From a virus: a stretch of 64,000 bases of DNA. A model generated the notes under the pieces. The model saw only the letters and a program-made list of their open reading frames with translations. It was not told the origin of the DNA and did no database searches. Each line of letters starts with the position of its first letter. Positions within the stretch are counted from its first letter, which is position 1. A program made the position numbers and the translations under genes. Location of the stretch: the IMG/VR virus record IMGVR_UViG_3300011390_000002, positions 3,719 to 67,718 of that record. One strand, given 5' to 3'. Below, piece after piece: positions 8,192 through 61,278 of this stretch.

Positions 8192-8292
8192 CCGGTGGAG
8201 AGGAGAAAGCCCGAGCCGATGCCCACCACAACGCCTTAGTCAAAACTGAATAATGTAATTGCTGCGACGTGCAGCGCTACCGGAACAGCATC

Positions 8293-8622
8293 ATGAAAAA
8301 GCTCACCACCCTCATCACGAAGGCCATTGAAATGACCAAGCCCTACGACGTTCCCGCTGACCACGCCTGGAGCCGCCAGTCGGTGTATAGCCGCCAGGAC
8401 ATGCAGCACCTGACAACGGTTCCCAACGCTCAGGCCGTGATGGCCTGGCACACCGGCCTCGACATCCAGGCCGTGCGAAAGGCCGACGGCGTGGAGGCGC
8501 TCTTTCTGGCCGGCAAGGAGATCCCGAGCCGCGCACCGGAGCAGGTCGTGTTCTCACTCGCAAGCCAGGATGAGCAGAGCTGCCGCAACCAGGTGAGCTA
8601 CCTCTTCGGAGTGAAGCTGTGA
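8293..8622 (+). CDS. hypothetical protein
   Basis: GC3-biased ORF downstream of an AGTCA-type palindrome (8238); start could be 8269. Confidence 0.65.
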   Translation: MKKLTTLITKAIEMTKPYDVPADHAWSRQSVYSRQDMQHLTTVPNAQAVMAWHTGLDIQAVRKADGVEALFLAGKEIPSRAPEQVVFSLASQDEQSCRNQVSYLFGVKL

Positions 8623-8783
8623 ACCAAGAACACCTCGAATGGGCAGCCGCCCTCGTCATCGTCCTGATCGCAGCGTTTGCCGTCACCTACGGGTGGCTCA
8701 AGGTGATCGACGTCACCCTGTGGCTCACGCGGAGCGCGAAGCCCAAGCGTCTACCCACCACGCCGCCTGAGCTCAAGCTGTAA
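8619..8783 (+). CDS. small single-TM peptide (54 aa)
   Basis: GTG overlapping upstream TGA; MNQEHLEWAAALVIVLIAAFAVTYGW. Confidence 0.5.
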   Translation: MNQEHLEWAAALVIVLIAAFAVTYGWLKVIDVTLWLTRSAKPKRLPTTPPELKL

Positions 8784-8837
8784 GCTGATAAACAGTCAAA
8801 ACTGACGCACACATAACCACCACTGAAGAGAACGACC

Positions 8838-9026
8838 ATGAAGACCATTCACCGCGCCTTTGAACCGTCCACCCAAGCTGCTGCACCGGAGAAGGAGCAG
8901 TTCAAGGCGATGCGCCCGTATCAGTTGATCGAGTGGCTCGAGGAAGAGCAGGAAGAGGCCGAGATCCGTCACCTGCGCCGTCAGATCCGCTCCAACGGGC
9001 GCGTGGGCATGATGGAGATGTATTGA
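8838..9026 (+). CDS. hypothetical protein
   Basis: GAAGAG RBS; follows palindrome at 8794. Confidence 0.6.
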   Translation: MKTIHRAFEPSTQAAAPEKEQFKAMRPYQLIEWLEEEQEEAEIRHLRRQIRSNGRVGMMEMY

Positions 9027-9044
9027 GGGTTGCGGGTGGGACCA

Positions 9045-9319
9045 GGGTGTCGGAGAACGGGAGAGCCCGCCGACACCCCAGTGGGATTGACGCACGCAGC
9101 CTTGGCCAGAAGCCTAGGGCATTGCCCTCGGCAGAGCACCACGGAGGGCAGGGCAGTGGCCAAGGGGCTCGCCTAGGCGTCACCCAAGGACGACGGCTAC
9201 GGGCGAGCGCCTTGGGGTCCAAAACGGGAGCTGCCGCCGACACACTTAGGGAGTTTTGAGCACCACCCTCGGGAATCGACCTAGGCCGATCGCCTACTGA
9301 TCCGCTCGCCGCCCTAGGG
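9045..9319. repeat. non-coding element B: 8x CCWWGG, 2x AACGGGAG..GCCGACAC, hairpin
   Basis: CCWWGG at 9100, 9113, 9160, 9172, 9184, 9210, 9280, 9313; stem GGGTGTCGG/CCGACACCC at 9045-9078. Confidence 0.65.
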
Positions 9320-9435
9320 TGCTCGGAGATGAGGATCATCCTCAGCCTGCCTCGCGTCTAACGCTCCCCGTCGCGCCCGTCAAGCGGACCCGCGCCGATA
9401 CAACAAAAACACATGCAAAAAAAGAAAACGAAAAA

Positions 9436-9479
9436 ACGTGCAAAACGCGCTTGCACGTCTGAAAAAGACTCTTCATAAT
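9436..9479 (+). promoter_or_regulatory. sigma70 promoter with A-tract UP element and overlapping ACGTGCAA-N7-TTGCACGT operator
   Basis: TTGCAC 9451-9456, 17 bp, CATAAT 9474-9479; A-tracts upstream. Confidence 0.75.
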
Positions 9480-9555
9480 TCGTCTTACTCGCTGCAACGT
9501 TGCAACGAGACATACAGTCAAAACTGACTAACACACACTTAAAGAGAAAACGAAA

Positions 9556-10314
9556 ATGAACGCACAAGCTAACGCAACGAACGCAGTTAAGGCAACGAAG
9601 CGCGCAGCACGTAACAAGAAAGCAAGCGCGCCGGTTGACGGTCTGTCGCAAGTCGAAACGCAAGTCGTTGAAACGCTCGCAGTAGAGTCCACCGTCGAAG
9701 CTGCGACGGTCGCAAACGTCACGAGCGCAGAGAAAGCAGAAGCAGCGCAAAGCATGCTGCTTGCTGCGATTCAAACGCGCATCGATAACGCACCGTCTGA
9801 CAACTTCAAAAAGAACATGCTTGCCGAGAAAAACGCGCTCTCCGGTCGTAACGCGCTGATCGCACTTGAAAAGTGCATCGAGTTAGAAGTGGACTTTGTT
9901 GCGCTCGCCAAGAGCTTCGCAGTGGTCGACAACAAAGCGCACGACTATGTGGCAATCTACGCGGCACAGAAAGTCCGTAAAGCTGTGTTTGCTCTCGCGT
10001 GCGGTATGTCGTCCGTGTTTGACGGTTACACGCAAGCGATTCTCAAGAATCTCATTAAGCTTGAATCGCTCTCGAATCGCGGTTCGCAAATGTCGCTCTC
10101 TAACAAAGTCGTCTTTAGCGAAGATATGCAAACGCAAGCGGTGCGCAGCTTCAAAATGTGCGAGCCGTCTACCGCCAGCACGCAAGCGTCAAGCACGCGT
10201 CAAATGTTGCGTTTCTTGAATGTGTGCAATGTCGTGAAGTCGCGCAAAGATGACTCAATTACGCTCACCGACTCGAACGCAGCGAAAAAAGTCGTTTCGA
10301 TGTTTACTGCGTAA
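9556..10314 (+). CDS. putative early protein encoded by CC/GG-depleted DNA
   Basis: 252-aa ORF, AAAGAG RBS, strong promoter; Ala/Lys-rich N-terminus. Confidence 0.8.
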   Translation: MNAQANATNAVKATKRAARNKKASAPVDGLSQVETQVVETLAVESTVEAATVANVTSAEKAEAAQSMLLAAIQTRIDNAPSDNFKKNMLAEKNALSGRNALIALEKCIELEVDFVALAKSFAVVDNKAHDYVAIYAAQKVRKAVFALACGMSSVFDGYTQAILKNLIKLESLSNRGSQMSLSNKVVFSEDMQTQAVRSFKMCEPSTASTQASSTRQMLRFLNVCNVVKSRKDDSITLTDSNAAKKVVSMFTA

Positions 10315-10491
10315 CAGTCAGAATTGACGGTTAGAACGTTCTCTAACCGTCTCGCAGAGCTCAGACACACATTGCACGTCTGACGCTCACAAACCGCTCA
10401 CACACTCTCTAAACGGTTCTCAACATGTTCATTCTCGTTACGCGCACGTTTCACGGTCAGGGCTTCACGTTTCAGCGCACGGTTTATGCAT

Positions 10492-10536
10492 ACGTGCAAA
10501 AAGACATTGCACGTATTTTGTAAGGCGTGCTAGAGT
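10492..10536 (+). promoter_or_regulatory. sigma70 promoter with ACGTGCAA-N7-TTGCACGT operator
   Basis: TTGCAC 10507-10512, 18 bp, TGc-TAGAGT 10531-10536. Confidence 0.6.
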
Positions 10537-10577
10537 CTTAATAACAGTCACAATTGACTATCTCAGGAGGGTGCGCA

Positions 10578-10751
10578 ATGTCTTTCGGTCTGTTCTGTCT
10601 TCTCGCGATCCTCTCTACTGCGTTGGGTGTTGCTGTCGTCGCGTGCATTGTGGAGCGTAACAGCGCGCAGCAGCAGCGCAGGGATCGAGCACGACGCGCT
10701 GCACTCGGACGCGCGCAACGTCGGGCGATTTTCAGCGCATACGGTCGCTAG
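10578..10751 (+). CDS. membrane-anchored peptide with Arg-rich tail
   Basis: AGGAGG RBS; hydrophobic N-terminus. Confidence 0.65.
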   Translation: MSFGLFCLLAILSTALGVAVVACIVERNSAQQQRRDRARRAALGRAQRRAIFSAYGR

Positions 10752-10859
10752 GGGCGGGATCGCGAAAGTCGAAGTCCTAGACTTTTTGCGGTTCTCGATG
10801 GCCCTCCCTTCCTCGTCTTCCACCCCCAAACACCGTCCCTTATAGAGCCAGGCCGCCAG

Positions 10860-11234
10860 GTCCGCGCTTCCTTATACAGCCGCAGCCCCGCAGCACATTC
10901 ACGAAATGTCCCCGTCAGGTCGCCATGTTAAATTTGGGGTCTTACCCACGAGGCATATATGCTGGCTCGTCTGAACGCTTATTCCAAAGGCACCTCACGC
11001 GATGGGATGCAGACATGGCACTTCGATATCGACGTTCGCGATTCGGGCACGCCTCTGTTTGTTGAGACGATCTCGCTCGAGGCAGTCACCCTGATTGCCG
11101 ACGCAAACAAGCAGGGTCCGCTCTACCAACTCTGTCGAGCAATCCGCGACGCGGAAGAAGGGCGCTATGAGGCGCTTGTGGGGACCGAGTTCGGCGTCGA
11201 GTAGCGTCGAGTCCGCGCTTCCTTATACAGCCGC
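10860..11234 (+). repeat. 24-bp direct repeats flanking a single small ORF
   Basis: GTCCGCGCTTCCTTATACAGCCGC at 10860-10883 and 11211-11234. Confidence 0.8.
10959..11204 (+). CDS. hypothetical protein
   Basis: GAGG RBS, 81 aa. Confidence 0.65.
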   Translation: MLARLNAYSKGTSRDGMQTWHFDIDVRDSGTPLFVETISLEAVTLIADANKQGPLYQLCRAIRDAEEGRYEALVGTEFGVE

Positions 11235-11274
11235 GCTTCCTATACTTGGTTGTGATCCGACCTGGAGCGCTGAC

Positions 11275-12024
11275 ATGGCTGAGCCGCAAAACGACGAACG
11301 CAAGGCTGTAGAACCGACGTCGGCAGTTCCAAAGACACGCCGCTTCGCTTGGCTCACTTTTCATTTCTTCGTGGACGTCACGACGCTGCTCGCGTCGATC
11401 GCCACCGTGATCGCACTCATTTTCCTTATTCACGATCGCCGCGATCAAGCCAATATTGCCGCGTGGACCCTGTTGCAGACCTATCTGCAACAGGAGCATC
11501 GAGCGCAATTTAATCAAGGGCAGAGCTTCGCCCTCGAGACATTAGCGAGTCATGGAATAGATCTCCACGATATTGATGCGCATGGCATTGTGCTTGCTGA
11601 CACCAATTTGCGCGCAGTAGACGCTGAGGAAGCATCGTTCGAGCATGCGCAATTGGTGGGGGTCGACTTGTGGAGCGCAGCGCTAAATGGTTCCAATTTT
11701 AAAAAAAGCGATATGTATTCCTGTAATTGCCGTTACGCCTCATTTTCGAATGCAAATTTGACGGGCGCTTCATTCAGAGGAGGCGATTATCGGGATGCCG
11801 ATTTTGGATTTGCCGATGTATCAGATATGACATTGGCGGCAAACCAGGTGGACCAAGACGCATTCAGAAACTCATGCAACCGACCGGGACATCCGCCTCA
11901 CGCCTTTTCGAGCGTTCCTATTGACTCTCCAAAGCATCCTCAAAGCGACGCGTGTCTCAAGGTTTGGAGTAAATCGTGGGACGCATTGGCGAAGGCGCCG
12001 GACGCAAATGCGGGTGGGGAGTAA
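11275..12024 (+). CDS. membrane-anchored pentapeptide-repeat protein
   Basis: TM helix followed by A(D/N)L/ASF-type pentapeptide repeats. Confidence 0.75.
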   Translation: MAEPQNDERKAVEPTSAVPKTRRFAWLTFHFFVDVTTLLASIATVIALIFLIHDRRDQANIAAWTLLQTYLQQEHRAQFNQGQSFALETLASHGIDLHDIDAHGIVLADTNLRAVDAEEASFEHAQLVGVDLWSAALNGSNFKKSDMYSCNCRYASFSNANLTGASFRGGDYRDADFGFADVSDMTLAANQVDQDAFRNSCNRPGHPPHAFSSVPIDSPKHPQSDACLKVWSKSWDALAKAPDANAGGE

Positions 12025-12105
12025 CGGGGCAACCTTACGCAAGCCAACACTCAATGCTTACATTTGTCTATAATCTCGTCGAAATTTTTCGAGGGAGACC
12101 AGACA

Positions 12106-12558
12106 ATGATCAAGACAACTATCGCCGTCGCGCTCGCGGCGCTCGCACTGACAGGCTGCATGACCGCTCAGCAGGAAGCTGAGAACCGCGCGTCGTATGA
12201 GAGGCTCGAGAGCGTGCTCATGAAGGCCCAGGAGAACTCAACGGTCGATTGCACGGGTGCCGACGTGTGCGAAAAGATGTGGACGCTCACCAAGAACTAC
12301 GTGCAGCAGAATAGCGGCATGGCCGTGCGGATCTCCGACGACTCCCTCATCGACACCTTCGCCCCGGTGCAATATGGGATGGCGACCTTTCGCGCGACCC
12401 GGGAGCCGGCCGGCGAGAAGATGATCGTTCGCCTAGAGGGGAGGTGTCGAGGCATGTATAACCGCGACGGCACCGAGGGGCCGAATTACGCGGACTGCGC
12501 CCGCGCGATTGGGGTGCCGCAGAACAAATTCCTGCGATATCTTCACGATCACATGTAA
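12106..12558 (+). CDS. lipoprotein
   Basis: MIKTTIAVALAALALTGC lipobox; GGGAG RBS. Confidence 0.8.
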   Translation: MIKTTIAVALAALALTGCMTAQQEAENRASYERLESVLMKAQENSTVDCTGADVCEKMWTLTKNYVQQNSGMAVRISDDSLIDTFAPVQYGMATFRATREPAGEKMIVRLEGRCRGMYNRDGTEGPNYADCARAIGVPQNKFLRYLHDHM

Positions 12559-12559
12559 T

Positions 12560-12583
12560 AAAAAAGGCACCCGAGGGTGCCTT
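12560..12583. terminator. bidirectional intrinsic terminator
   Basis: AAGGCACC-cgag-GGTGCCTT between convergent genes. Confidence 0.75.
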
Positions 12584-12605
12584 AGTTGTTTCTGGTGGCT
12601 GTAGA

Positions 12606-12902: not shown

Positions 12903-13190
12903 GGAATCGGTTAACGTGTAAAAGTGTTTTGCACGTAAATTATAGTTAGGTGCTTGCTTATTACACGAAGAAAATGCCCGCGGTGCGCATTCTAAGAGGT
13001 CTGTTCAAACGCCGCTTCGACGCCATCCCGGGCAAACCGAAAAGGCAAGCGTTAGGCAATGGCGCTGTCGTCTGCACGACGTTGCAGCCATCGGCTTGCA
13101 ATGATATACAGTCGGGCGGAATACGCCGAATTTCGAGGTTGTCGGCGTGATTTCGAGGGTCAAAAAATCTACTAAAACGGGAAAAGCAGT

Positions 13191-16908: not shown

Positions 16909-17548
16909 TGCCGATCTCCTCGAAGTGTTGTTGAAGTCGTTTGCGAAGCGCGCTCTCGTTCCAGCCAAACTCTTTCGCGATCACCCTCAAGCCAGCGAGC
17001 CGCTTGGGGTTCGCGAAGCGCTTGGCAATCTCTGCGACCCCCTCCCTTGTCATGCGCGGCGCAGCAACCTCGAAGAGCTTTTCGACCGGGTATCCCTTCG
17101 CGAACCGCCCGTAGACGGTCGGGAAAGGCAGATTGAATTCTTGAGCCCACGCGGAAAGAGTTTGGCTGCGTCCTTCGAGTTCAATGACGATATTGTTCCG
17201 GCGATTGTTCGCTTGCTGCTTTGCCGTCGCCCAGCGGCAGTTGTCAGGTTTATAGCCTTCATTGACGCGCTCCCGGTCGAGCGTCATGCCTTCCGGCGCC
17301 TCGCCCATGTCGGCGAGGAAGTTCTCGAAACTCATCCATCGCTCACAAATCCCGATGCCGCGGCCGCCGTAGTCGGCGAAGCCGGCATGCTTACTGTTTA
17401 AGCACCGGCCCTTCATGTTCACCCACGCCCGATAAGTCTTATTGTCGCCCGCCATCCCATGCACAAACTTGTGGTGCCGAGAGCTTTCTTCCGTAGTCGC
17501 CATTTCTGATTTGCCATCCAGGTTTAGTTGGCGTAAAGTATAAGTCAA
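16901..17548 (-). CDS. HNH-type homing endonuclease-like protein
   Basis: YRAWVNMKGRC..YGGRGI..W..FENFLADMG..TLDRE..N..Y..DNCRWAT..QANNRR. Confidence 0.85.
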   Translation of the reverse strand: MTYTLRQLNLDGKSEMATTEESSRHHKFVHGMAGDNKTYRAWVNMKGRCLNSKHAGFADYGGRGIGICERWMSFENFLADMGEAPEGMTLDRERVNEGYKPDNCRWATAKQQANNRRNNIVIELEGRSQTLSAWAQEFNLPFPTVYGRFAKGYPVEKLFEVAAPRMTREGVAEIAKRFANPKRLAGLRVIAKEFGWNESALRKRLQQHFEEIGNV

Positions 17549-17581
17549 TACTGACTGTTACTCCTACGCCAAAGAACACAT

Positions 17582-19070: not shown

Positions 19071-19088
19071 CCCTCGCATTAGTCAATA

Positions 19089-19598
19089 TTGAATATGCAA
19101 AATGATAACGATCCTGTGCGTGATGGCACTGCTGTCATTGGTAGCGATTGGGTGCTGGCTTCTGAGCCGGGACAAGCTTCAGCTCGAGCCGGCAGAGGTG
19201 CTGGCCGTGCTGATGCTGCTGGCGCTCCTCGACGAGTCCGAACGGTCGTGAAGCAGTTCGACCCGTATGTGGGCATGCCCCGCGCGATTCGGATCGGCAA
19301 CTTCAACTTCCTGGTGAAGCTTGTGAGCGTGGGCGAGTCCCAGGCGACAAACCGGCACGGCCTCATGTGCCCGGTGCAGCAGATCATCGCGATTTCGCCT
19401 GGCCAAAACGCGCAGAACCTCGCCGACACGTTCATTCACGAAGTAATCCACGCCATTCATTACCACTTCGACCTTCTGGACGACAACAACCAGGAGGAGC
19501 AGATCACCACGATGACCGCGCACGGGCTCTGCCAGGTGTGGCAGGACAACCCCAAGGCAATGGCGTGGTGGGCCGCTATCAACGCGCACGGCATCTGA
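19089..19598 (+). CDS. zincin-like metallopeptidase
   Basis: FIHEVIHAIH (HExxH). Confidence 0.65.
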   Translation: MNMQNDNDPVRDGTAVIGSDWVLASEPGQASARAGRGAGRADAAGAPRRVRTVVKQFDPYVGMPRAIRIGNFNFLVKLVSVGESQATNRHGLMCPVQQIIAISPGQNAQNLADTFIHEVIHAIHYHFDLLDDNNQEEQITTMTAHGLCQVWQDNPKAMAWWAAINAHGI

Positions 19599-20264: not shown

Positions 20265-20876
20265 ATGAGTAAGAAGATTGGAATCTATCGCATCACCAAC
20301 ACGGTTGACGGCAAGTTCTACGTCGGCAGTTCGGTGGACATGGACAAGCGGTTTTATCTGCACAAGAACCAGCTTGGGCACGGCAAGCATCGCAACAGCC
20401 GACTGCAACGAGCCTGGTTGAAGCATGGCGCCGACGCATTCCAATTCGAAATAGTGGAGCTGGTCTCGAGCCGTGACGAATTGCTCGCGACTGAGCAACG
20501 CTGGCTCGACGAAACGAGGGCGGTAGAGCTTGGATACAACATCTGCTCGACAGCCCATCACCGGCTCGGCGTGAAAGCAACAGCGGAAACATTGGCTCGA
20601 ATGGCCGCCGCTCAACTGGGTAAGCGACACACCGAGGAGACGCGTGCGCGCATGTCGGCGGCAAAGACCGGGCAACCGAAGCCGCCTCGCACAGCAGAAC
20701 ATCGCGCAAAGATCGGCCTATCCCGGAAGGGCAAGGCCGCTTCGGAAGAAACGCGAGCGAAGTTGAGGGCTGCCCGTGCAAGACGCGCCCCCATGAGCCA
20801 AGAAACCCGAGAAAAGATGTCCGCCTCCATTCGAGCAGCACTGGCGGCAAAGAAAGCCCTATCACTGAATACCTGA
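20265..20876 (+). mobile_element. GIY-YIG homing endonuclease with NUMOD3-like repeats
   Basis: GIYRITN..KFYVGSS; repeated H/EETRARMS motifs. Confidence 0.9.
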
Positions 20877-21645: not shown

Positions 21646-22568
21646 CCATCATCACCGACAACGCCGATCTGCTGATCGAGCGGCACCCGACCCCCAAGCG
21701 CCACATGCTGAGCCTGCTGCCCGAGATTTTCGTCGAGCGCGGCAACAAGGCGGACTGGGATCTGCTGCACGAGCTCCACTACAAGGCGGAGAACCTGCCG
21801 TTCGGGCCGAAGTTCTACCGGTGCGTGCTGCGCGACCAGACGATCGGCGTGGGCGTAATGACGGTCTCGAGCGCCATCTCGTCGGGCCGCAACGAGGTTT
21901 TCACGCACCTGCGACCCAACCGCGGCGGCACCGACACGAAGCTCATCAACAAGTATCGGCTGAACTGGATCAACGACAACGCCTGCACGAACTCGCGCCT
22001 GGTGCTCGACACCATGTATCGGGGCGCCGGGATCGCCTACCGCATGCAGAACATCATGATGCGCATGGCGGGCACCCGCATCGTCGAGTTCCAGTCCTCG
22101 ATGTCCAAGTTCAACCCGTTCGCAGCCAAAGCGGGCGTGCAGTTCGTCAAGCCGCGGCCGAGCCAGAAATACGAAGCGGGTCTCGCGTTCTTTAGGCGCT
22201 GGTTCGACTCGATCCCATCCGACTACGTGGGCGTGATGGAAGAGCTCGAGGCGATGCCTGCTGCCGTGCGGGAGAAGTGCATGACGGAGATGCGGGCGTT
22301 CTACTACCGCAATTCGAGCCGCGAAAAGTCGGGCAACAAGCGCTTTGACGCGAAGGAACGCATCGAGGCCATGTCGCCGAGCTGGTTGCTCAAGCAAATC
22401 CAGCAACTGGTGTTCGCAAGCCCCCTTTATGGCGTCTACCTGAATCCGGACTACGACACCGACCTGGGCGCGCCGCGGGAGCTCCCCGCACGTGTGCCGC
22501 TCCTCGCGTTCGACAACCAGCCATTGGACGCGCCCCTTGACCTCTCCAAGCTCCAGGGAGCCGTCTGA
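21642..22568 (+). CDS. GNAT-fold acetyltransferase (ABC-ATPase-associated phage type)
   Basis: LHELHY; SRLVLDTMYRGAGIA (motif A); SSMSKFNPFAAKAG. Confidence 0.75.
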   Translation: MTIITDNADLLIERHPTPKRHMLSLLPEIFVERGNKADWDLLHELHYKAENLPFGPKFYRCVLRDQTIGVGVMTVSSAISSGRNEVFTHLRPNRGGTDTKLINKYRLNWINDNACTNSRLVLDTMYRGAGIAYRMQNIMMRMAGTRIVEFQSSMSKFNPFAAKAGVQFVKPRPSQKYEAGLAFFRRWFDSIPSDYVGVMEELEAMPAAVREKCMTEMRAFYYRNSSREKSGNKRFDAKERIEAMSPSWLLKQIQQLVFASPLYGVYLNPDYDTDLGAPRELPARVPLLAFDNQPLDAPLDLSKLQGAV

Positions 22569-22879
22569 TGCACCTGACCGTCAAGCAAATCGAACTGCTC
22601 TCCGTGATCAACGCCGGCAACCCGGATGGGAGCGTGTGCGACCTGGATCAAGTCATCGAGCGGATCAACTACGAAACCACCAAGGCGTCGATCCAGTTCT
22701 CGATCCGCGCGCTGGTGAAGCACGGGCTGATTGAGAAGAAGGGCAAGGAGAAGCGAAGGGGCCGCCTGCGGGTGCTCATCTCCATTACCGCGACGGGTGC
22801 GCCCTATGTGGCAGTGAGAAAGGTCGCGGGGCCGGCGTATGTCGTCTCTGAAGCTGAAGAAATCTACGAGCCGGACTGA
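22568..22879 (+). CDS. winged-helix (MarR-like) DNA-binding protein
   Basis: LTVKQIELL..SIQFSIRALVKHGLIEK..ISITATG. Confidence 0.7.
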   Translation: MHLTVKQIELLSVINAGNPDGSVCDLDQVIERINYETTKASIQFSIRALVKHGLIEKKGKEKRRGRLRVLISITATGAPYVAVRKVAGPAYVVSEAEEIYEPD

Positions 22880-22953: not shown

Positions 22954-23346
22954 ATGAATAAAGAAGAAGAACACATTGATCAATGCTCGGCGGCACGGGT
23001 GATCGGCACGGGCACGGTGAGCCCCGCCCAGATCAACGCATCGATCGCGGCTGCTCTCGGCTTCATCGTCGAGATCCAGGACGGCATCGTGAAGTGCTGG
23101 GACCGGGAAAAGGGCATGCCGGACGAAACCAACTGGGTGCCGGGGCTCGACTTCGCGGGACGGGAAGTGCTCACGCTTGTCGCGCTCGCAAAACGCGAAA
23201 TCCCGGTCTCTACGCTGCCCAGCGATACGGGCGGGTGGGTTTGCTCGTTCGAGCTGAATGGCGAGCGTCTGAGCACGTTCCCGCAGCCCGAAGAAGCATG
23301 CGCGCTCGCACTCGCTCTCTACCACATTATTTGTCATGACTATTAG
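22954..23346 (+). CDS. hypothetical phage protein
   Basis: 130-aa ORF; INASIAAALG..ACALALALY pattern. Confidence 0.6.
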   Translation: MNKEEEHIDQCSAARVIGTGTVSPAQINASIAAALGFIVEIQDGIVKCWDREKGMPDETNWVPGLDFAGREVLTLVALAKREIPVSTLPSDTGGWVCSFELNGERLSTFPQPEEACALALALYHIICHDY

Positions 23347-23359
23347 TCAGAACTGACTG

Positions 23360-23388
23360 TTGACAAACGCCAAGGCGGCGGATACAGT
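23360..23388 (+). promoter_or_regulatory. sigma70 promoter for packaging/head operon
   Basis: TTGACA-17-TACAGT, abutting the palindrome at 23345-23358. Confidence 0.7.
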
Positions 23389-23420
23389 GGAGCCCTGTTT
23401 TCGTTTTCTCTCTCCGAAAT

Positions 23421-23448
23421 GGGCGCTCACCTCTGCGCCCTTTTTTTT
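23421..23448 (+). terminator. terminator-like hairpin in terS leader
   Basis: GGGCGC-8nt-GCGCCC-T8. Confidence 0.6.
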
Positions 23449-25386: not shown

Positions 25387-25423
25387 CTTGCATAACAGTC
25401 AATATTGACTAATAATCCAAGCC

Positions 25424-28062: not shown

Positions 28063-28202
28063 GCCTCTTTTTTGGGTCTGGATAACAGTCAGAACTGACT
28101 ATGCAAAGAAGCCGATTTATGCTATTGTGGCGTCCTATCGGTGACTAAAGCGACCTAGGCCCGAAACGAAACTGTTTCTTATCTTTTTTAAAAGGAAAAG
28201 CA

Positions 28203-29114: not shown

Positions 29115-29163
29115 AGCAACAGTCAAAATTGACTGGCGAAAGCCGGTCAGCCATGACAAGATG

Positions 29164-32350: not shown

Positions 32351-32417
32351 TGCCTTTTCTGCTATATTCGGCAACAGTCACAACTGACTGTTAAAACCTC
32401 TTTGCAAAGGAGTTTGA

Positions 32418-32942
32418 ATGGCAAGCGATACAAAGAACGTGAAGCTGGGCGTCTGCACCGTGTTTCTGGACGGTAAAGACCTCGGCTACACGCAGGGTGG
32501 TGTGCAGGTGTCGGTGAAAACCGATACCCACAAGGTGAACATCGACCAGTTCGGTAAGACCACGGTCAACGAACTTATCATGTCGCGCGACGTGTCGGCC
32601 AAGGTGCCCCTGGCTGAAACCACGATCGAGAACATGGTCGCGATTATGCCGGGCGCAACGCTGGTCAACGACGGCGAAGGCGGCAAGCACGTCGAGGTGG
32701 ACTCGGGGATCGGCATCGACTTGCTGTCGATCGCCAAGGAACTGCGCCTGCATCCGATCAACAAGGCCGTGGATGATTACTCGGAAGACTTCGTGATCCC
32801 GCTGGCGGCAACGGCTGGCGGCCTCGATTTCGCCTACGAGGTCGAGAAGGAACGCATCTTCAACGTCGAGTTCACGGGCTACCCCGATCCGGTGACGAAG
32901 AAGCTGTTCAAGGTGGGCTCGGCTCCGGCTGTCGCTCCGTAA
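32418..32942 (+). CDS. major tail tube protein
   Basis: LGYTQGGV..DQFG..VPLAE; position. Confidence 0.8.
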   Translation: MASDTKNVKLGVCTVFLDGKDLGYTQGGVQVSVKTDTHKVNIDQFGKTTVNELIMSRDVSAKVPLAETTIENMVAIMPGATLVNDGEGGKHVEVDSGIGIDLLSIAKELRLHPINKAVDDYSEDFVIPLAATAGGLDFAYEVEKERIFNVEFTGYPDPVTKKLFKVGSAPAVAP

Positions 32943-33028
32943 TCTCTGTAACAGTCATAATTGACTGTTATCTCAACGAACCCAAGCCCCGCTGCCGCAA
33001 GCGGGGCTGCCCACATCTGGAGTAGCAC

Positions 33029-39614: not shown

Positions 39615-39641
39615 AATAACAGTCAATAGTGACTATACGAC

Positions 39642-40043
39642 ATGACCAACGCAGAATTGATCGGCATCCCCTTCGAACGGGGTGGGCGCGGCCCGGACAG
39701 TTTCGATTGTTACGGGCTGTGCATGCACATCATCGAGCGCGACACCGGCATCAAAGTGCCGGACTACGGCGCGCCGGAAGACCAAGGCCGCATCCAGGCG
39801 GTGATGGTCAGCTCCGCGATGTTTTGGAAGCCGATCGACTACCCGAAACCGGGTGCGCTGGTCATGTTCCGAACGGGGCGCTTTATCGCGCACGTTGGAA
39901 TAGTCATTACTGACTGTCGCTTCATCCATACCTGGGAAGACTCTGGTGGGGTGGTGATCGAGCGGCTCGACCAATGGAAGAATCGAATCGTCGGATTTTA
40001 TGAATACTGCGACAACGGCAAAACCCAAGCAGCGCAAAGCTAA
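39642..40043 (+). CDS. NlpC/P60 tail-tip peptidase
   Basis: GIPF..GGR..FDCYGL..HVGI..FIH. Confidence 0.9.
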   Translation: MTNAELIGIPFERGGRGPDSFDCYGLCMHIIERDTGIKVPDYGAPEDQGRIQAVMVSSAMFWKPIDYPKPGALVMFRTGRFIAHVGIVITDCRFIHTWEDSGGVVIERLDQWKNRIVGFYEYCDNGKTQAAQS

Positions 40044-45748: not shown

Positions 45749-45804
45749 CAGTCAATATTGACTGTATAATCGGCCATCGACTTACCCCTTGGAAGAACGA
45801 GCGC

Positions 45805-50886: not shown

Positions 50887-50982
50887 GCCGGGGTGCATGA
50901 ACAGTCAAAACTGACTTGCCATAAAGATCAGTTTTGGCCTATCATCTGGGCTACCCCTTTGCAAGCGATCGACAAAGGAATC

Positions 50983-51342: not shown

Positions 51343-51365
51343 AACAGTCAATACTGATTATTATC

Positions 51366-51665
51366 ATGAAACACTGGTTTAAATCCTTCTTCGACCATCG
51401 CCTGTTCCTGCTGCTGCTGCCGGCCGCGGCCGTTCTCATGAGCGACCGTCCGGTGTTCTACAGCTTGCTGTTCTCGATCTCGGCGATCCTCTTCATCGTA
51501 GGCGTCGGTCACTGGCTGCGCCAAATGCAGATGCACTACATCTCGATGGGCGAGCTCGCCGGCAAGGCCAAAGAAACCTCGATCGGCGCGGCCACCGTGT
51601 TTTTTGCGACCGCTGCCTATAGCGCCGTGCTGGTGATATGCACGGTGTGGTGGGTGCGCGGCTGA
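51366..51665 (+). CDS. putative holin
   Basis: 99 aa, 3 TM segments, directly before the endolysin. Confidence 0.7.
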   Translation: MKHWFKSFFDHRLFLLLLPAAAVLMSDRPVFYSLLFSISAILFIVGVGHWLRQMQMHYISMGELAGKAKETSIGAATVFFATAAYSAVLVICTVWWVRG

Positions 51666-55848: not shown

Positions 55849-55923
55849 TCGGTCTTTCGTCTTTCGTAACAGTCATTATTGACTATATAATGAGGGCTCT
55901 TAGAACCGACCTAGGACGCCCTC

Positions 55924-56682: not shown

Positions 56683-56897
56683 GCCACGAGACCGATCTGG
56701 CCAAGAAGATGCACGCGCGGGCTGAGGCTGATGGATTGGCGCCGGATCACGCGCTGCGGCTGCGGGCAGACGAGTTCGACGAAGCCGCGGTGGGCTATTA
56801 CGCGCAGCCGCAAACTTCGAGCGTCAAGCAGTTCATCGGCGCGTGGGCTCGAGCACGATCCGCCTGGTCGAGCTATAGCGGCGAGCCCTTGATTTAA
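56679..56897 (+). CDS. hypothetical protein
   Basis: overlaps the phoH stop; 72 aa. Confidence 0.65.
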   Translation: MSHETDLAKKMHARAEADGLAPDHALRLRADEFDEAAVGYYAQPQTSSVKQFIGAWARARSAWSSYSGEPLI

Positions 56898-57052
56898 GGC
56901 GCCGCGGTTGGAAACGGAGCGGTCTCGGTTGGGGCCGCTCCCTAGACCTGGGTTCCCGGGTCCGTGACTTGGGCTCCCAATGCGTTCCCGTTAGTTTTAA
57001 AGAATCTTAAGACTTAAATATAAATATTGTTGTTTTTAACGAGGCGGAGAGG

Positions 57053-57778
57053 ATGACCCAAACGATCATCGCGGAACCCAAGCTCAAGGAATGGTTTGGG
57101 GATTTTTACGGGCACGACCTGTCGTTCCTGCGCTGCGAAGTGGCGGCGATTGCGAACATTGACGGCAAGCTCCTGAAGCGCGAACCCGAGTTGCTCACGA
57201 CCAAGTGGTTCGACTATCGGCGCATGCACCCGACAAAGGCGACGTATCTCTTCGCGCAGTGCTACCTGAAGGCATATCAGGACTTCATGGTGACGACGCT
57301 CGACTACCAGCGCGGCAAATTCATGCGCCCATTCAAAGGGAGCGAAGACTTCATGCAAGCGAAGGAAAAGAAGGCGCTCTGGATGCTGCGGCAAACGGGA
57401 GATCAGCTCGGCATTCGATACAATTTTTTCCTGCGTTTCGCGATGAACTGGATGATGGCCCGGAACTGGCACCATGCGCCGCGCCCCTCGCACATCAACG
57501 CCAACGAAGAGATGTTGGCCGAGATGGTGATCGCGTGGGAGGAGGAGTGCCGCAACAGCCTGCAAATCTGTCAGGACGAGCGCTACTTGGCCGCCAACTG
57601 GTTTGGTCACGCCGACCAGATTGCCTACGAGCGGTTCCTCATCACCCAGATCAAGCAGCGGCGCCACGCACACTATTCGCTCGCCGCAGCCCTCTATACG
57701 CACGGCGTGCTGCGCATTGAGGCCGCGATCCAGAACTTCCCACCGGGGACACTCGATCAAGCGCTCAAATTAGCCTGA
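57053..57778 (+). CDS. conserved hypothetical protein heading the replication module
   Basis: GAGAGG RBS, 241 aa, after an AT-rich tract. Confidence 0.7.
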   Translation: MTQTIIAEPKLKEWFGDFYGHDLSFLRCEVAAIANIDGKLLKREPELLTTKWFDYRRMHPTKATYLFAQCYLKAYQDFMVTTLDYQRGKFMRPFKGSEDFMQAKEKKALWMLRQTGDQLGIRYNFFLRFAMNWMMARNWHHAPRPSHINANEEMLAEMVIAWEEECRNSLQICQDERYLAANWFGHADQIAYERFLITQIKQRRHAHYSLAAALYTHGVLRIEAAIQNFPPGTLDQALKLA

Positions 57779-57858
57779 GTATATCAGTCAATACTGACTA
57801 TAATGTGCATGTCAGTGTGACGTTTGATCTACCCATTTTCCCCGTGTTGGAGAGTTTC

Positions 57859-58278
57859 ATGACCCCCGAACAACTGCGCATCGAACAACAACGTGAAGGG
57901 CAGCGCCTGGCCCGCTGTGACGATGACGCGATTCCTAGCAGTCGCCCCCGTCTGACCACTCGGCCAGGCTATGAAAGCCCGAGCCGCGCGTCAGCGCCCC
58001 GCATGAGCCGTCCGAAACCCAAAGCGGCCCCGTCTGGCCACCAGGCTTTTCTGAAGGCGCTGCAGGACTCTGGCGCTGAGATTGTGGTGCACCTGCTGGA
58101 TGATGACGATGTGCTCACCGGCAAGATTCGCGCGGCCGACGCGTTCACGATCTCCCTGGAAGTGAAGGGCGACACCCACGTCATTTTCAAGCACGCGATC
58201 CAGCGCTTCAAGCCGCTCCCGCGTCCGCGAGTTCAGGCACAGACCCCGGTCGTTGATGAAATGGGTCTTGCAGCATGA
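57859..58278 (+). CDS. Hfq/LSm-fold protein with disordered N-terminal extension
   Basis: QAFLKAL..IVVHLL..LTGKIRAAD.FTI.L..HVIFKHAI matches the Hfq Sm1/Sm2 pattern. Confidence 0.75.
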   Translation: MTPEQLRIEQQREGQRLARCDDDAIPSSRPRLTTRPGYESPSRASAPRMSRPKPKAAPSGHQAFLKALQDSGAEIVVHLLDDDDVLTGKIRAADAFTISLEVKGDTHVIFKHAIQRFKPLPRPRVQAQTPVVDEMGLAA

Positions 58279-59696
58279 GCGAAGCCACCATCGATCGCGT
58301 CGAGGAATCGGTTGCTGCGATGGTGGGCGCTGCATATAGCGGCGCTGCCGCCGCAACTGCTGCGGGCGAGGAGCCGGATGACTTCATCGCCAACAAGTTC
58401 GAGTTCGACGACGAGTTCCAGAGCACCATCGCGACGCTCGCGCTGCGTGACTCGGAATTCATGCGCCGCGCCGCGCACCTGCTTAAGCCCGAGTATTTCG
58501 AGCAGACCGGTGAAGCGGGTGTGGTGGAGCTCTCGCTGCGCTATTACGAGCGATTTAAACGCGTTCCTGACCCGGCCGTTTTCCCGACCGTCATTCGCGA
58601 CGCCATTGCAAACGCTCGTCTGAGGAAAGACGCCGCCGGCGAAGTCGTCGCGGCATTCAAGAAGCTCAAGGACCGCACGATCGCCGATCGCGATTATGTG
58701 GAAGAGAAGGTTGCGGAGTTCGCCCGGCACCAAGCGGTGAGCCAGGCCATCCTCGAGTCTGTGAGCCTGCTGGAAAAAAAGAAGCTGCCGCAGATCGAAA
58801 AGGCCATCAAGGCGGCAATCGAGATCGGGCTGAATGAGGCCGACGAGGGCTACGACTACTTCAAGGAGATCGAGTCCCGAACCGAGGAGCGGCTCGACAT
58901 TGCGAGCGGCAAGGTGCCACCGCGCGGCATCAGCACCGGCATGCTCAAGATCGACGAGATCCTCTATCACAAAGGGTGGGGCCGCAAGGAGCTCTCGCTG
59001 CTGATGGGCGGGGCGAAGTCCGGTAAGACGACCGCCATGATCACGTTCGCCAAGTTCGCGTCACTCGCGGGCAAGAACGTGCTCTATATCACCCTCGAAG
59101 TGGCCTCACGCATTATCGCGGAGCGTCTGGATGCGACGATTTCCCAAAATCTCGTCAAGGAGCTCGGCAAGAACATCCATGACATTCGCCTGAAGGTTGA
59201 GGCGTTAGAGAAGCGCGCGGGTCTGTTGAAGATCCACGAATATGCGGCGGGCACCTGCACGCCCAACATGATTCGTTCGCTGATCGACCGCTACAAGGCG
59301 AAAGGCATCAAGTTTGACCTAGTGGTGGTCGACTACCTGGACATTATGGCGCCCAACCATCGCTATAACGACCCGATCGAGAACAGCAAGTCCGTGTTTG
59401 TGGACATGCGCGGGCTCGCCTTCGAGGAAGACGTGGCGCTCCTGTCCGCAACGCAGACCAACCGGGACGGGTCCAAGTCTACGGTGGCTAAAGCCGAGCA
59501 CGTGGCAGAAGACTTCAACAAGATTCGGATCGCGGACGTGGTGATTTCCATTAACGCGACGGAAGAGGAGCGGGCGAAGGGCGAAGCACGGCTTTACTTC
59601 GCAGCGTCTCGAAATCAGGAGTCGGGGATCACGGTGTTCATTCGCCAGAACCTTTCGACTATGACTTTCATCGAGAGCATAGTCAGAATTGAATAA
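58275..59696 (+). CDS. replicative DnaB-like helicase
   Basis: GGAKSGKT, YITLE, VVVDYLD, ATQTNR. Confidence 0.92.
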   Translation: MSEATIDRVEESVAAMVGAAYSGAAAATAAGEEPDDFIANKFEFDDEFQSTIATLALRDSEFMRRAAHLLKPEYFEQTGEAGVVELSLRYYERFKRVPDPAVFPTVIRDAIANARLRKDAAGEVVAAFKKLKDRTIADRDYVEEKVAEFARHQAVSQAILESVSLLEKKKLPQIEKAIKAAIEIGLNEADEGYDYFKEIESRTEERLDIASGKVPPRGISTGMLKIDEILYHKGWGRKELSLLMGGAKSGKTTAMITFAKFASLAGKNVLYITLEVASRIIAERLDATISQNLVKELGKNIHDIRLKVEALEKRAGLLKIHEYAAGTCTPNMIRSLIDRYKAKGIKFDLVVVDYLDIMAPNHRYNDPIENSKSVFVDMRGLAFEEDVALLSATQTNRDGSKSTVAKAEHVAEDFNKIRIADVVISINATEEERAKGEARLYFAASRNQESGITVFIRQNLSTMTFIESIVRIE

Positions 59697-59797
59697 TGGC
59701 ACATCCCTGGGTGTTTTTCCTTCTGATGATCATTTTCACAGGTGGCCGGCTGACGGTGCCGGCCCTTGTCACTCTGCTCGCGATGGCGTGCAGCTAA
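59696..59797 (+). CDS. 33-aa hydrophobic peptide
   Basis: TAATG overlap with helicase stop; MAHPWVFFLLMIIF. Confidence 0.35.
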   Translation: MAHPWVFFLLMIIFTGGRLTVPALVTLLAMACS

Positions 59798-59810
59798 TTG
59801 GAGCTATCGC

Positions 59811-60014
59811 ATGACCAAAGAATATCTGCCGCACCAGCAGCGCGTAGTGACGGAGAAGGCGGAGAACGACGAGCGCTTGGAGAAGCTCATCAAATTCTTC
59901 GACACGCCTATCTTCGCGGGCCTGGACAACCTGGAGAAGTTCGACCTGCGTTACCAACACGCGCTGATGCGCGAGCTTTCCGGCGTGCTGGCAAGCAGAA
60001 TCTCCCGCTTCTAA
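59811..60014 (+). CDS. small conserved phage protein
   Basis: GGAG RBS; PHQQRVV.EK.E..E.L.KL..F..RI..F motif. Confidence 0.75.
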   Translation: MTKEYLPHQQRVVTEKAENDERLEKLIKFFDTPIFAGLDNLEKFDLRYQHALMRELSGVLASRISRF

Positions 60015-60092
60015 GGCAATTTCACAGGGGTCTCACAAACCCCTGTTTTCAGCGCGTATCGTGCGCGCATCTGACTAAGAAAGTGTGACGTA

Positions 60093-61175
60093 ATGAGCGA
60101 TAACGCGGAGCTTCAGGAAGCAATCGAGACGCTGGACATCGAGTCGTGGCTCGACGATCAGGGCATCGCGTATAAGCAAGCGCGTGGGGCTCGCGGCCGG
60201 CAAGCAAACGTCAAGGAATGCCCGTGCTGTGGCAACTCGAACTGGAAGGTCTACATCGGCCTGGAGACGGGTCTTGGCAACTGCTTCGCAGGTGACTGCG
60301 AAACGAAGTTCAACAAATGGAGCTTCATCAAGGCGTCGCTCGGCTCGGACAACAACCGCGACGTGGTGGAGCACATCCAGAACTTCGCGAAGAGCCAGGG
60401 CTGGCGCCCCAAGCGCAAAGCGTCGATGGCCGTCAACCTGAATACGGACCTGAAGCTGCCAAAGTCGATCGCGCTGCCGCACAACCGGCGCAACCTGAAG
60501 TATCTGGACAACCGCAATATCACCGGCACGACCTCAAGCTATTTCAGCCTGCGCTACTCGCACGATGGCAAGTTCTTCTACAAGGACGATGACGGCAAGA
60601 CGCGCGCCCAGGATTACAGCCAGCGCGTGATCATCCCCGTGTTCGACCTCGAGGGCGACCTCGTGACGTTCCAGGGCCGCGACATTACCGGCGCGGCGGA
60701 GAAGAAGTATCTGTTCCCGCCGGGATTTGCCTCGACGGGCTCCGTGCTCTACAACGGCCACAACGCGCTTGCGGCCAAGCACGTGGTGATCGGGGAGGGC
60801 GTGTTCGATGTGGCAGCCATGAAGATCGCGCTCGACGAGCAACTGGAGCTGCGCGACGTGGTGCCAATCGGCAGCTTCGGCAAGCACCTGTCGCACGGCG
60901 ATGAACAGTCGCAGATGGCCAAGCTCACCAAGCTGCGCGACGGTGGCCTGCAGGTGGTGACGTTCATGTGGGACGGCGAAGCGAAGGCAATCGATGCGGC
61001 GATTGAAGCGGCCCTGATGGTCAAGAAAATCGGGCTCACATCGCGTGTGGCGGTGCTCCCCGAGAACCGTGATCCCAACGAAGTGCCGCCGGCGGTCGTG
61101 CGTGATGCCTTCTGGAAAGCGACGACCATTAACCCGATGACGGCAACGCGCATGAGGCTCACCAAAGGTCGTTAA
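60093..61175 (+). CDS. DNA primase (Zn finger plus TOPRIM)
   Basis: CPCC..CF, IGEGVFD, WDGE, DPNE. Confidence 0.88.
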   Translation: MSDNAELQEAIETLDIESWLDDQGIAYKQARGARGRQANVKECPCCGNSNWKVYIGLETGLGNCFAGDCETKFNKWSFIKASLGSDNNRDVVEHIQNFAKSQGWRPKRKASMAVNLNTDLKLPKSIALPHNRRNLKYLDNRNITGTTSSYFSLRYSHDGKFFYKDDDGKTRAQDYSQRVIIPVFDLEGDLVTFQGRDITGAAEKKYLFPPGFASTGSVLYNGHNALAAKHVVIGEGVFDVAAMKIALDEQLELRDVVPIGSFGKHLSHGDEQSQMAKLTKLRDGGLQVVTFMWDGEAKAIDAAIEAALMVKKIGLTSRVAVLPENRDPNEVPPAVVRDAFWKATTINPMTATRMRLTKGR

Positions 61176-61278
61176 ATTTCGCCGTTTGCAATAGTCAAAA
61201 CTGACTACAATTCCCGCACATTGATGCGTAGAATGATTTTCATTGAGAGCGCGACAGTAGCGCGCGAGAGAGGAGCGC

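What the first reader, a model, noticed from the sequence alone, without database searches (positions are those of the whole stretch)
8238..61206. Genome-wide 22-copy palindrome AGTCA-N4-TGACT: an undescribed master-regulator regulon
Seen: perfect copies start at 9516, 10546, 17543, 23345, 25397, 28087, 29121, 32376, 32953, 39621, 39902, 45750, 50903, 55871, 57786 and 61193. One-mismatch copies start at 8238, 8794, 10316, 19081, 51346 and 59681. Several extend to AACAGTCA-N4-TGACTGTT. Chance expectation is far below one copy. They sit at almost every module junction (early, terminase, portal, capsid, tail tube, chaperone, tip, fibre, lysis, PhoH, replication). They lie downstream of promoters (9516, 10546) or abut -35/-10-like boxes (23345, 45750, 57786), and are absent from the AT-richer morons at 1-8.2 and 10.6-17.5 kb. 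Established: P1 controls lysogeny through many dispersed operators of one repressor. Inference: one dimeric protein locks down the whole lytic programme; alternatives are an activator or a ParB-type loading site. In-window candidates are the wHTH at 22568, the two ParB proteins and the HTH of 52958.
Basis: partly seen in the sequence, partly recalled or inferred. Interest (0 to 1): 0.8.

Follow-up and report, generated by a model that had tools for sequence, protein, structure and literature searches.

The report
Repeated operator palindrome in phage promoters
A 14-base palindrome repeated about 23 times between the genes of this soil phage is most likely the docking site of one phage repressor built into nearly every lytic promoter, and the same design is shared by a wide group of plasmid-like phages.

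Summary
AGTCA-N4-TGACT occurs 17 times perfectly (0.02 expected) and 7 times with one mismatch, almost always between genes.

The motif belongs to the phage, not the host. A Paraburkholderia genome of 8 Mb has 39 copies, 35 of them inside one related prophage. Relatives carry 25-37 copies. An Acinetobacter baumannii phage-plasmid has the same motif, and other SSU5-group phages have variants of it.

The copies overlap predicted sigma-70 promoters in three different registers: over the spacer and -10, over the -35, or over the start site. That fits the operator of a repressor better than an activator site, a ParB site or an RNA hairpin.

The best candidate binder is a 434-Cro-like XRE protein of about 140 aa. 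In relatives it sits beside a cluster of sites, and its recognition helix co-varies with the half-site. Its gene lies beyond the end of this incomplete contig.

The "master regulator" idea is supported in outline, but binding and the sign of regulation are untested.

This scan found the same motif before on other DNA (e1-3543737), with a concordant reading.

The parts
7671..7684 (+).
   Evidence: orthologous promoter plus site in G001, G002 and G004
8238..8251 (+). One-mismatch site (TGAAT arm), 41 nt before ORF 8293-8622.
8794..8807 (+). One-mismatch site between ORFs 8619-8783 and 8838-9026.
9516..9529 (+). Perfect site 26 nt before ORF 9556-10314 (phrog_4202, function unknown).
10316..10329 (+). 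One-mismatch site 1 nt after the stop of ORF 9556-10314.
10546..10559 (+). Perfect site just downstream of a predicted -10 (TAGAGT), so it lies over the start site.
17543..17556 (+). Perfect site over the start-site region of predicted TTGCCA-N17-TAAAGT, 25 nt before the first ParB_N gene.
19081..19094 (+). One-mismatch site after the second ParB_N gene.
23345..23358 (+). Perfect site abutting the -35 of the late (terS) promoter.
23360..23388 (+). Predicted sigma-70 promoter TTGACA-N17-TACAGT of the terminase and structural operon.
   Evidence: conserved in G001-G006
25397..25410 (+). Perfect site between the large terminase and portal genes, in the spacer of TTGCAT-N17-AATAAT.
28087..28100 (+). 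Perfect site between the DUF6651 gene and the major capsid gene. Its right arm CTGACT can serve as a -35 (N17, then TATGCT).
29121..29134 (+). Perfect site 6 nt after the major capsid gene.
32376..32389 (+). Perfect site (AAC...GTT extended) just downstream of predicted GTGACT-N17-TATATT and before ORF 32418-32942, which is the tail tube gene by position.
32953..32966 (+). Perfect site with the longest extension (GTAAC...GTTAT), before the tail chaperone ORFs.
39621..39634 (+). Perfect site 7 nt before the NlpC/P60 gene.
39902..39915 (+). Perfect site inside the NlpC/P60 gene, 84 nt before the gpJ-like gene. The position is conserved in relatives.
45750..45763 (+). Perfect site in the spacer of TTGAAT-N18-TATAAT, before the tail-fibre gene.
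50903..50916 (+). Perfect site overlapping the -35 of predicted TTGCCA-N18-TATCAT.
51346..51359 (+). One-mismatch site 6 nt before ORF 51366-51665.
55871..55884 (+). Perfect site in the spacer of TTCGTA-N17-TATAAT, before phoH.
57786..57799 (+). Perfect site in the spacer of CTGAGT-N18-TATAAT, before the Hfq-like gene and dnaB.
59681..59694 (+). One-mismatch site overlapping the end of the DnaB-like gene.
61193..61206 (+). Perfect site 17 nt after the primase gene.

Best explanation
The palindrome is the operator of one phage-encoded dimeric repressor. The sequence is AGTCA-N4-TGACT, more fully AAY-AGTCA-RWAY-TGACT-RT. The operator is built into the core of ordinary sigma-70-type promoters in front of almost every lytic transcription unit: early genes, the ParB cluster, terminase, head, tail, fibre, lysis, phoH and replication. 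In the prophage or plasmid state the repressor would occupy all 25-35 sites of a complete genome and block RNA polymerase directly at each promoter. Accessory genes and toxin-antitoxin genes lack the site and would stay on. The most likely repressor is a 434-Cro/CI-like XRE (HTH_3) protein of about 140 aa. In relatives it is transcribed divergently from the first lytic operon (small ORF, cobT, cobS, sigma factor). It is surrounded by 2-5 sites, one of which faces its own gene, which suggests autoregulation. In this record the gene lies beyond the contig end. Shown here: the enrichment, the intergenic and co-oriented placement, the restriction to the phage, the conservation across hosts, the overlap with predicted promoters, and the existence, fold and distribution of the XRE protein. 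Inferred: that this protein binds the sites, and that binding represses.
For: Enrichment: 17 perfect copies against 0.02 expected, and 24 at up to 1 mismatch against 1.2 expected.

Phage-specific: 35 of 39 copies in an 8-Mb Paraburkholderia genome lie inside the roughly 100-kb related prophage.

Conserved: 25-37 copies in eight related 107-118-kb genomes or prophages and 9-17 in three more. An A. baumannii phage-plasmid has 23 copies of the same core. Homologous variants occur in RHEph10, V1VFA-S, SSU5, pJN2-26 and G007, and none in nickie.

Promoter overlap: 59% of 180 sites carry a strong forward sigma-70 match, against 24% in reverse orientation and 16% of random intergenic windows. The -10 starts cluster at +13..16, +31..38 and -20..-7 relative to the site, which puts the site over the spacer and -10, over the -35, or over the start site. 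TATAAT-like hexamers at +13 number 32 forward and 3 mirrored.

In V1VFA-S many sites lie directly after GCGCTATAAA, a place where an activator could not work.

The terS site abuts a consensus TTGACA-N17-TACAGT promoter that needs no activator, and this arrangement is conserved in all relatives.

XRE protein: Pfam HTH_3; best PDB profile hit 434 Cro; Foldseek TM 0.81-0.83 and rmsd 1.5 A to 434 Cro. It is present in every genome with an AGTCA-type or TAAGT-type motif except SSU5, and absent from nickie.

Co-variation: the residue before the conserved Pro-Asn of the recognition helix follows the half-site. It is K/R/T with AGTCA and N with TAAGTAA, the latter in both V1VFA-S and pJN2-26, although their proteins are closest overall to RHEph10 and the A. 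baumannii protein respectively.

SSU5, a plaque-forming isolate, keeps 8 sites but has no XRE homologue. The protein is therefore dispensable for lytic growth.
Against: There is no binding, transcript-start or expression data, and no RNA run holds this DNA.

The candidate repressor gene is not in this window or record, so its existence in this particular phage is inferred from relatives.

About a quarter of sites (46 of 180) have the -10 in one fixed register at the right arm, and the -35 is weak in most of them. This also resembles activator-dependent promoters such as the Lpa-dependent late promoters of P1.

The spacer and flanks are asymmetric and co-oriented with transcription, which a simple symmetric dimer does not explain.

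A sigma-70-family gene has nearly the same distribution as the XRE gene among the closer relatives.

The co-variation rests on few independent lineages.

The XRE protein has no S24 peptidase domain, so the route of induction is unknown.
Confidence: 0.6

Rival explanations
1. Positive control. The palindrome is an upstream element, centred near -19, of a phage-specific promoter class. It would be read by a dimeric activator, possibly the small 74-aa protein or the XRE protein acting like lambda CI at PRM, or together with the phage sigma factor. This would resemble the P1 late promoters, which have a 9-bp inverted repeat at -22 and a -10 but no -35.
For: In 46 of 180 sites the -10 begins exactly at the last T of the motif or 1-3 nt after it, and the -35 signal is weak overall. 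Relatives encode a sigma-70-family protein whose distribution among the closer relatives matches that of the motif. P1 uses 11 such promoters with an Lpa-binding inverted repeat (AAGTTACTT read).
Against: The register is not fixed. Other sites lie over the -35 or downstream of the -10. Several sites sit in near-consensus promoters that need no activator. The right arm covers positions -16 to -12, where sigma binds. pJN2-26 and SSU5 have homologous palindromes but no sigma homologue. No similarity to Lpa was found. A site also faces the repressor-like gene itself.
Confidence: 0.2
2. RNA-level element. The transcribed hairpin AGUCA-loop-UGACU in 5' leaders and between cistrons would be bound by an RNA-binding protein, for example the phage Hfq-like protein, or would act as a processing or stability signal.
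For: All copies are on the sense strand with an oriented loop. Some copies have extended stems of varied sequence (11 sites with 4 or more extra pairs against 3.7 in shuffles). A compensatory change is seen at the cobT-cobS site between G001, G002 and G005. The phage encodes an Hfq-like protein.
Against: The bare hairpin is weak, at -3.2 kcal/mol, and 10 of 17 window sites have no extension. 102 of 180 sites have no extra pair, and covariation at the first flanking pair is marginal. The arms are invariant in sequence rather than covarying. In many sites the predicted start lies downstream of the motif. There is no Rfam match and no U-tract.
Confidence: 0.07
3. ParB-type loading or partition sites, or some other DNA-transaction site such as T5-like nick sites, packaging signals or replication signals.
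For: Two ParB_N proteins are encoded. Palindromes of about 14-16 bp are typical of parS (own knowledge).
Against: Both ParB_N proteins have homologues in nickie, which has no such palindrome. The sites are spread one per transcription unit rather than clustered. They are oriented with transcription and joined to promoter hexamers. Nicks cannot be tested with these tools.
Confidence: 0.05

Closest known systems
Phage 434 / lambda / P22 operators bound by XRE-family (Cro/CI) HTH dimers
   Same: The site is a 14-bp two-fold symmetric operator with 4-5-bp contacted arms and a central spacer that is A/T-rich in this window and most relatives. The candidate binder has a 434-Cro-like HTH domain. Its gene is divergent from the lytic operon, with several sites between them.
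   Different: Lambdoid phages have six operators in two clusters. Here there are 25-35 operators, one at nearly every promoter of a roughly 110-kb genome. The C-terminal half of the protein is an unrelated helical domain without an S24 peptidase. The sites carry an oriented spacer and oriented flanks.
Phage-plasmid P1: C1 repressor with many dispersed operators
   Same: One repressor is used with operators scattered over a roughly 100-kb phage-plasmid, each overlapping a sigma-70 promoter (annotated). The element has a phage-plasmid lifestyle and carries addiction modules.
   Different: C1 operators are asymmetric 17-mers, and C1 shows no similarity to the XRE protein. In P1 the late operons carry Lpa sites rather than C1 operators, whereas here the same site also precedes the structural and lysis genes.
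Mycobacteriophage L5/Bxb1 'stoperators' (own knowledge: Brown et al. 1997, EMBO J)
   Same: There are 20-35 copies of one repressor site in short intergenic gaps, all in one orientation relative to transcription. The whole genome would be silenced in the lysogen.
   Different: Stoperators are asymmetric 13-mers that block elongation and are mostly not part of promoters. Here the core is palindromic and overlaps promoter hexamers. A roadblock role is possible but untested.
P1 Lpa-dependent late promoters
   Same: An inverted repeat lies just upstream of a -10 hexamer in place of a good -35, and is repeated before the late operons.
   Different: The P1 repeat is 9 bp (AAGTTACTT) at a fixed -22, there are 11 copies, and they precede late genes only. 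Here the register varies, the sites also precede early and replication genes, and no Lpa homologue was found.

Membership tests
XRE (HTH_3) Cro/CI-type repressor-operator system | An HTH_3 DNA-binding protein is encoded by the element. | tested here: inconclusive
   It was found in relatives G001-G007, the A. baumannii plasmid, RHEph10, V1VFA-S and pJN2-26. It was not found in this 73.9-kb record, which is 69% complete and ends before the syntenic module.
XRE (HTH_3) Cro/CI-type repressor-operator system | The operator is two-fold symmetric, 14-18 bp, with half-sites about one helical turn apart. | tested here: met
   The motif is AGTCA-N4-TGACT, with arm centres 9 bp apart and 11 bp apart for the 7-bp arms seen in relatives.
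XRE (HTH_3) Cro/CI-type repressor-operator system | The operators overlap promoter core elements. | tested here: met
   This rests on computational promoter matches only. No transcript starts are available.
XRE (HTH_3) Cro/CI-type repressor-operator system | The protein binds the site and represses. | not testable with these tools
   Only indirect support exists: co-variation of the recognition helix with the half-site, and SSU5 being viable without the protein.
P1 C1 dispersed-operator regulon | A C1-family repressor and asymmetric 17-bp operators. | tested here: not met
   There is no similarity between C1 and the XRE protein, and the site is palindromic.
P1 Lpa-type late promoters | An Lpa homologue, with the inverted repeat at a fixed -22 and no -35. 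| tested here: not met
   No similarity to Lpa was found for the two ORFs upstream of terS. The register varies and some promoters have a consensus -35.
ParB-parS partition or loading sites | Sites clustered near par genes and bound by an HTH-bearing ParB whose presence tracks the sites. | tested here: not met
   The sites are dispersed one per operon. The ParB_N proteins have homologues in motif-less nickie.
Structured RNA element or intrinsic terminator | A stable stem with covarying pairs, followed by a U-tract for terminators. | tested here: not met
   The hairpin is worth -3.2 kcal/mol, the arms are invariant, extensions occur in a minority of sites, and there is no U-tract and no Rfam hit.

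The most novel reading that the evidence does not exclude
The palindrome may be more than a passive operator. It could be the defining element of a phage-specific promoter class shared by the whole SSU5 group of phage-plasmids. One protein, either the XRE factor acting in two modes or an unidentified dimer working with the phage sigma factor, would then both silence and fire all 25-35 transcription units. Operator and recognition helix would have co-evolved across alpha-, beta- and gamma-proteobacterial hosts.
Probability: 0.2. Interest if true: 0.7.

Novelty: new variant of a known kind. Interest (0 to 1): 0.55.

Why it matters
SSU5-group phage-plasmids are very common: portal relatives were found in 966 plasmid records, among them Klebsiella, E. 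coli and A. baumannii plasmids that carry resistance genes. How they keep about 100 kb of lytic genes silent is essentially unstudied. A single short operator at almost every promoter, with a candidate repressor, gives a directly testable model of that switch. It would help predict which plasmids are inducible phages. It also provides a set of natural operator and recognition-helix pairs (AGTCA, TCAGTMA, TAAGTAA, ARTCA) for studying how specificity evolves. For this window alone, it supplies a promoter map of an uncultured Paraburkholderia-type phage.

Tried and rejected
Host regulon: rejected, because only 4 of 39 copies lie outside the prophage in an 8-Mb host genome.

Lpa and C1 homology: none.

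Phage sigma factor as the reader of the motif: unlikely. The motif is palindromic, and homologous palindromes exist in pJN2-26 and SSU5, which lack the sigma gene.

RNA hairpin: weak energies and little covariation. Rfam: no hit.

Expression data: no RNA holder listed.

Literature: searching the motif strings gave no relevant paper. The Lobocka 2004 P1 genome paper is not held, so I read the P1 features from the GenBank annotation instead.

Close isolates: a megablast of 20 kb against phage isolates found no close relative.

A second, non-palindromic promoter motif for the sigma factor: a k-mer search of intergenic DNA gave only GGCCTAGGCC and an AACGGGAG...GCCGACAC repeat, with no clear promoter class.

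Restriction or methylation target: considered and set aside. Such sites would not be confined to intergenic DNA, oriented with transcription and joined to -10 boxes.

Full report
**Observation**

The pattern AGTCA-N4-TGACT occurs 17 times perfectly in the window, against 0.02 expected from shuffles. At up to one mismatch it occurs 24 times, against 1.2 expected.

One perfect copy, at 7671, was missed. The one-mismatch hit at 21 lies in a coding frame and is probably chance.

With a simple codon-usage gene call, the copies sit 1-25 nt after the upstream stop codon and 6-118 nt before the next start. The exception is 39902, which lies inside the NlpC/P60 gene 84 nt before the gpJ-like gene. That position is conserved in relatives.

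**Context**

The window is part of a 73.9-kb IMG/VR contig judged 69% complete, and all perfect copies of the record fall inside the window. No close isolate exists in the phage collection.

By portal protein, the nearest named relatives are these:
- SSU5-type phage-plasmids of enterobacteria, at about 52% identity;
- A. baumannii phage-plasmids, at 61%;
- Pseudomonas phage nickie;
- Rhizobium phages RHEph10 and V1VFA-S.

Closer uncultured relatives (portal 65-83% identical) are genomes of 107-113 kb. One is a prophage in a Paraburkholderia metagenome-assembled genome. Gene order matches nickie and the A. baumannii plasmid. It runs: ParB_N genes, ABC ATPase, thioredoxin, small wHTH, terS/terL, portal, capsid, tail, lysis, phoH, Hfq-like, dnaB, primase, ligase, then cobT/cobS and the polymerase genes that are missing here.

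**The motif belongs to the phage lineage**

Eight related genomes or prophages of 107-118 kb carry 25-37 perfect copies, and three more carry 9-17. About 95% of the copies are intergenic and run in the direction of the genes.

In the 8-Mb Paraburkholderia genome, 35 of 39 copies lie within the roughly 100-kb prophage. Of those 35, 29 are the identical 14-mer AGTCAAAACTGACT. A host regulon is therefore excluded.

A de novo scan for gapped palindromes finds the same core in an A. baumannii phage-plasmid: 23 copies, usually aTCAGTCA[G/C]TACTGACT. Clearly related versions occur in other relatives:

| Genome | Motif | Copies |
|---|---|---|
| RHEph10 | TCA[A/G]TCA-N4 | 19 |
| G007 | TCAGT[A/C]A-N4 | 21 |
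| V1VFA-S | TAAGTAA-N4-TTACTTA | 32 |
| SSU5 | TAAGT-N4-ACTTA | 8 |
| pJN2-26 | TAAGT-N4-ACTTA | 7 |
| nickie | none | 0 |

**Anatomy**

A logo of 135 sites shows the arms flanked by A-A-Y on the left and R-T on the right. The spacer is asymmetric (R, W, A, Y; commonest AAAC), and the DNA just to the right is A/T-rich.

Hexamers matching TATAAT in at least 5 of 6 positions start at the last T of the motif in 32 sites. In the mirrored orientation the count is 3.

Scoring full sigma-70 promoters around 180 sites gives a strong forward match in 59%. The figures are 24% for the reverse orientation and 16% for random intergenic windows. The -10 starts fall into three groups:
- +13..16: the motif fills the spacer and touches the -10 (46 sites).
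- +31..38: the motif abuts or supplies the -35 (31 sites).
- -20..-7: the motif lies over the start site (23 sites).

All three classes occur in this window. Spacer-class examples are 7671, 25397, 45750, 55871 and 57786. The -35 class includes 23345, 28087 and 50903. The start-site class includes 10546, 17543 and 32376.

In V1VFA-S many sites lie directly after a conserved GCGCTATAAA.

The terS site precedes a consensus TTGACA-N17-TACAGT promoter. This arrangement is conserved in all close relatives.

**Mechanism**

A site that always overlaps the promoter core, but in different registers, is what repressor operators look like. It is not what activator sites look like. The site is also present in promoters that already match consensus, and sometimes lies downstream of the -10.

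I therefore read the motif as the operator of one phage repressor that gates nearly every lytic transcription unit. Accessory and toxin-antitoxin genes lack the site.

**Candidate binder**

In relatives, a gene of about 140 aa is transcribed divergently from a small ORF followed by cobT and cobS. Two to five sites lie around it, including one oriented toward the gene itself.

The evidence that it is an XRE-type DNA-binding protein is as follows:
- It hits Pfam HTH_3.
- The best PDB match of its profile is 434 Cro.
- Its AlphaFold model has an N-terminal domain that superposes on 434 Cro, 434 repressor and P22 c2, with TM 0.81-0.84 and rmsd 1.5-1.9 A.

An HMM finds it in every motif-bearing genome tested except SSU5, and not in nickie. 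SSU5 forms plaques and keeps its sites. The protein is therefore not needed for lytic growth, which fits a repressor.

The residue preceding the invariant Pro-Asn at the start of the recognition helix tracks the half-site:
- K, R or T with AGTCA;
- N with TAAGTAA, in both V1VFA-S and pJN2-26;
- G in G007;
- Q-S in RHEph10.

The V1VFA-S and pJN2-26 proteins are closest overall to the RHEph10 and A. baumannii proteins respectively, not to each other. This is suggestive, but it rests on few lineages.

The gene is absent from this record because the contig ends before the syntenic region.

- The wHTH (phrog_900) has homologues in nickie and SSU5 and none in RHEph10.
- Both ParB_N proteins have nickie homologues.
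- The 52958 protein is a metallophosphoesterase.

**Rivals**

A positive-control reading remains possible, at about 0.2. A quarter of the sites have one fixed register with a weak -35. Relatives also encode a sigma-70-family protein (Pfam Sigma70_r2; profile hit to SigA at 2e-8). However, pJN2-26 and SSU5 have homologous palindromes without that sigma factor. There is also no similarity to P1 Lpa.

An RNA hairpin is unlikely. The minimal stem is worth only -3.2 kcal/mol, most sites have no extension, and the arms are invariant rather than covarying. A few orthologous sites, such as cobT-cobS, do show compensated longer stems.

ParB loading, nicking and restriction-related explanations fit neither the placement nor the distribution.

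**Novelty**

I found no paper containing these motif strings. An earlier follow-up of this scan reached a concordant conclusion for the same palindrome on another genome (e1-3543737).

Compared with known systems, this is a 434-type HTH repressor-operator pair deployed in the dispersed, genome-wide manner of P1 C1 or the mycobacteriophage stoperators. That makes it a new variant of a known kind. It is of moderate interest because it appears to be the common switch of a very widespread group of phage-plasmids.

Noticed in passing
window 23360-23448: The terS promoter TTGACA-N17-TACAGT is followed by a leader of about 30 nt and then a strong intrinsic terminator (GGGCGC-N8-GCGCCC plus T8) before terS. 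The whole arrangement is conserved in G001-G006. It resembles lambda PR'-tR' and hints that late genes are controlled by antitermination. The wHTH (22568-22879) and ORF 22954-23346 lie just upstream, where Q lies in lambda.
   Followed up: partly
L024:2405-3052 (-), relatives only: A sigma-70-family protein of 215 aa is encoded after cobT/cobS (Pfam Sigma70_r2; PDB profile hits to SigA and RpoD at 2e-8). It is present in G001-G007, the A. baumannii plasmid, RHEph10 and V1VFA-S. It is absent from SSU5, pJN2-26 and nickie. Its promoter class was not identified.
   Followed up: partly
window 8029, 9056, 9223: A repeated unit AACGGGAG-N6-GCCGACAC-N8-10-TTTT occurs 3-6 times per genome in the early regions of relatives as well. 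GGCCTAGGCC is the most enriched intergenic 8-10-mer in the whole clade.
   Followed up: partly
window 57859-58278: An Hfq-like protein (Pfam Hfq, 1.5e-9) is encoded just upstream of the DnaB-like helicase. The same pairing is annotated in the A. baumannii phage-plasmid.
   Followed up: partly
L166:3723-4179 (record 70723-71179, beyond the window): A ParE toxin / PaaA2 antitoxin pair lies on the minus strand near the contig end, consistent with a plasmid-prophage lifestyle.
   Followed up: no
SSU5 (L183-L188) and pJN2-26 (L201-L206): A second dispersed palindrome, AAACAA-N-TTGTTT, has 14 copies. In many of them it lies about 14 nt downstream of a GATAAT box, in one part of the genome. This looks like a separate regulator or a leader RNA element.
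   Followed up: no
G006 C3:309-411 kb (L167-L173): A close relative is integrated in a 450-kb Paraburkholderia contig with the XRE gene at one prophage end, whereas related elements in Acinetobacter and enterobacteria are plasmids. The same phage type may therefore use either lifestyle.
   Followed up: no
window 20265-20876: A GIY-YIG/NUMOD3 homing endonuclease is inserted between the ABC-ATPase and thioredoxin genes.
   Followed up: no
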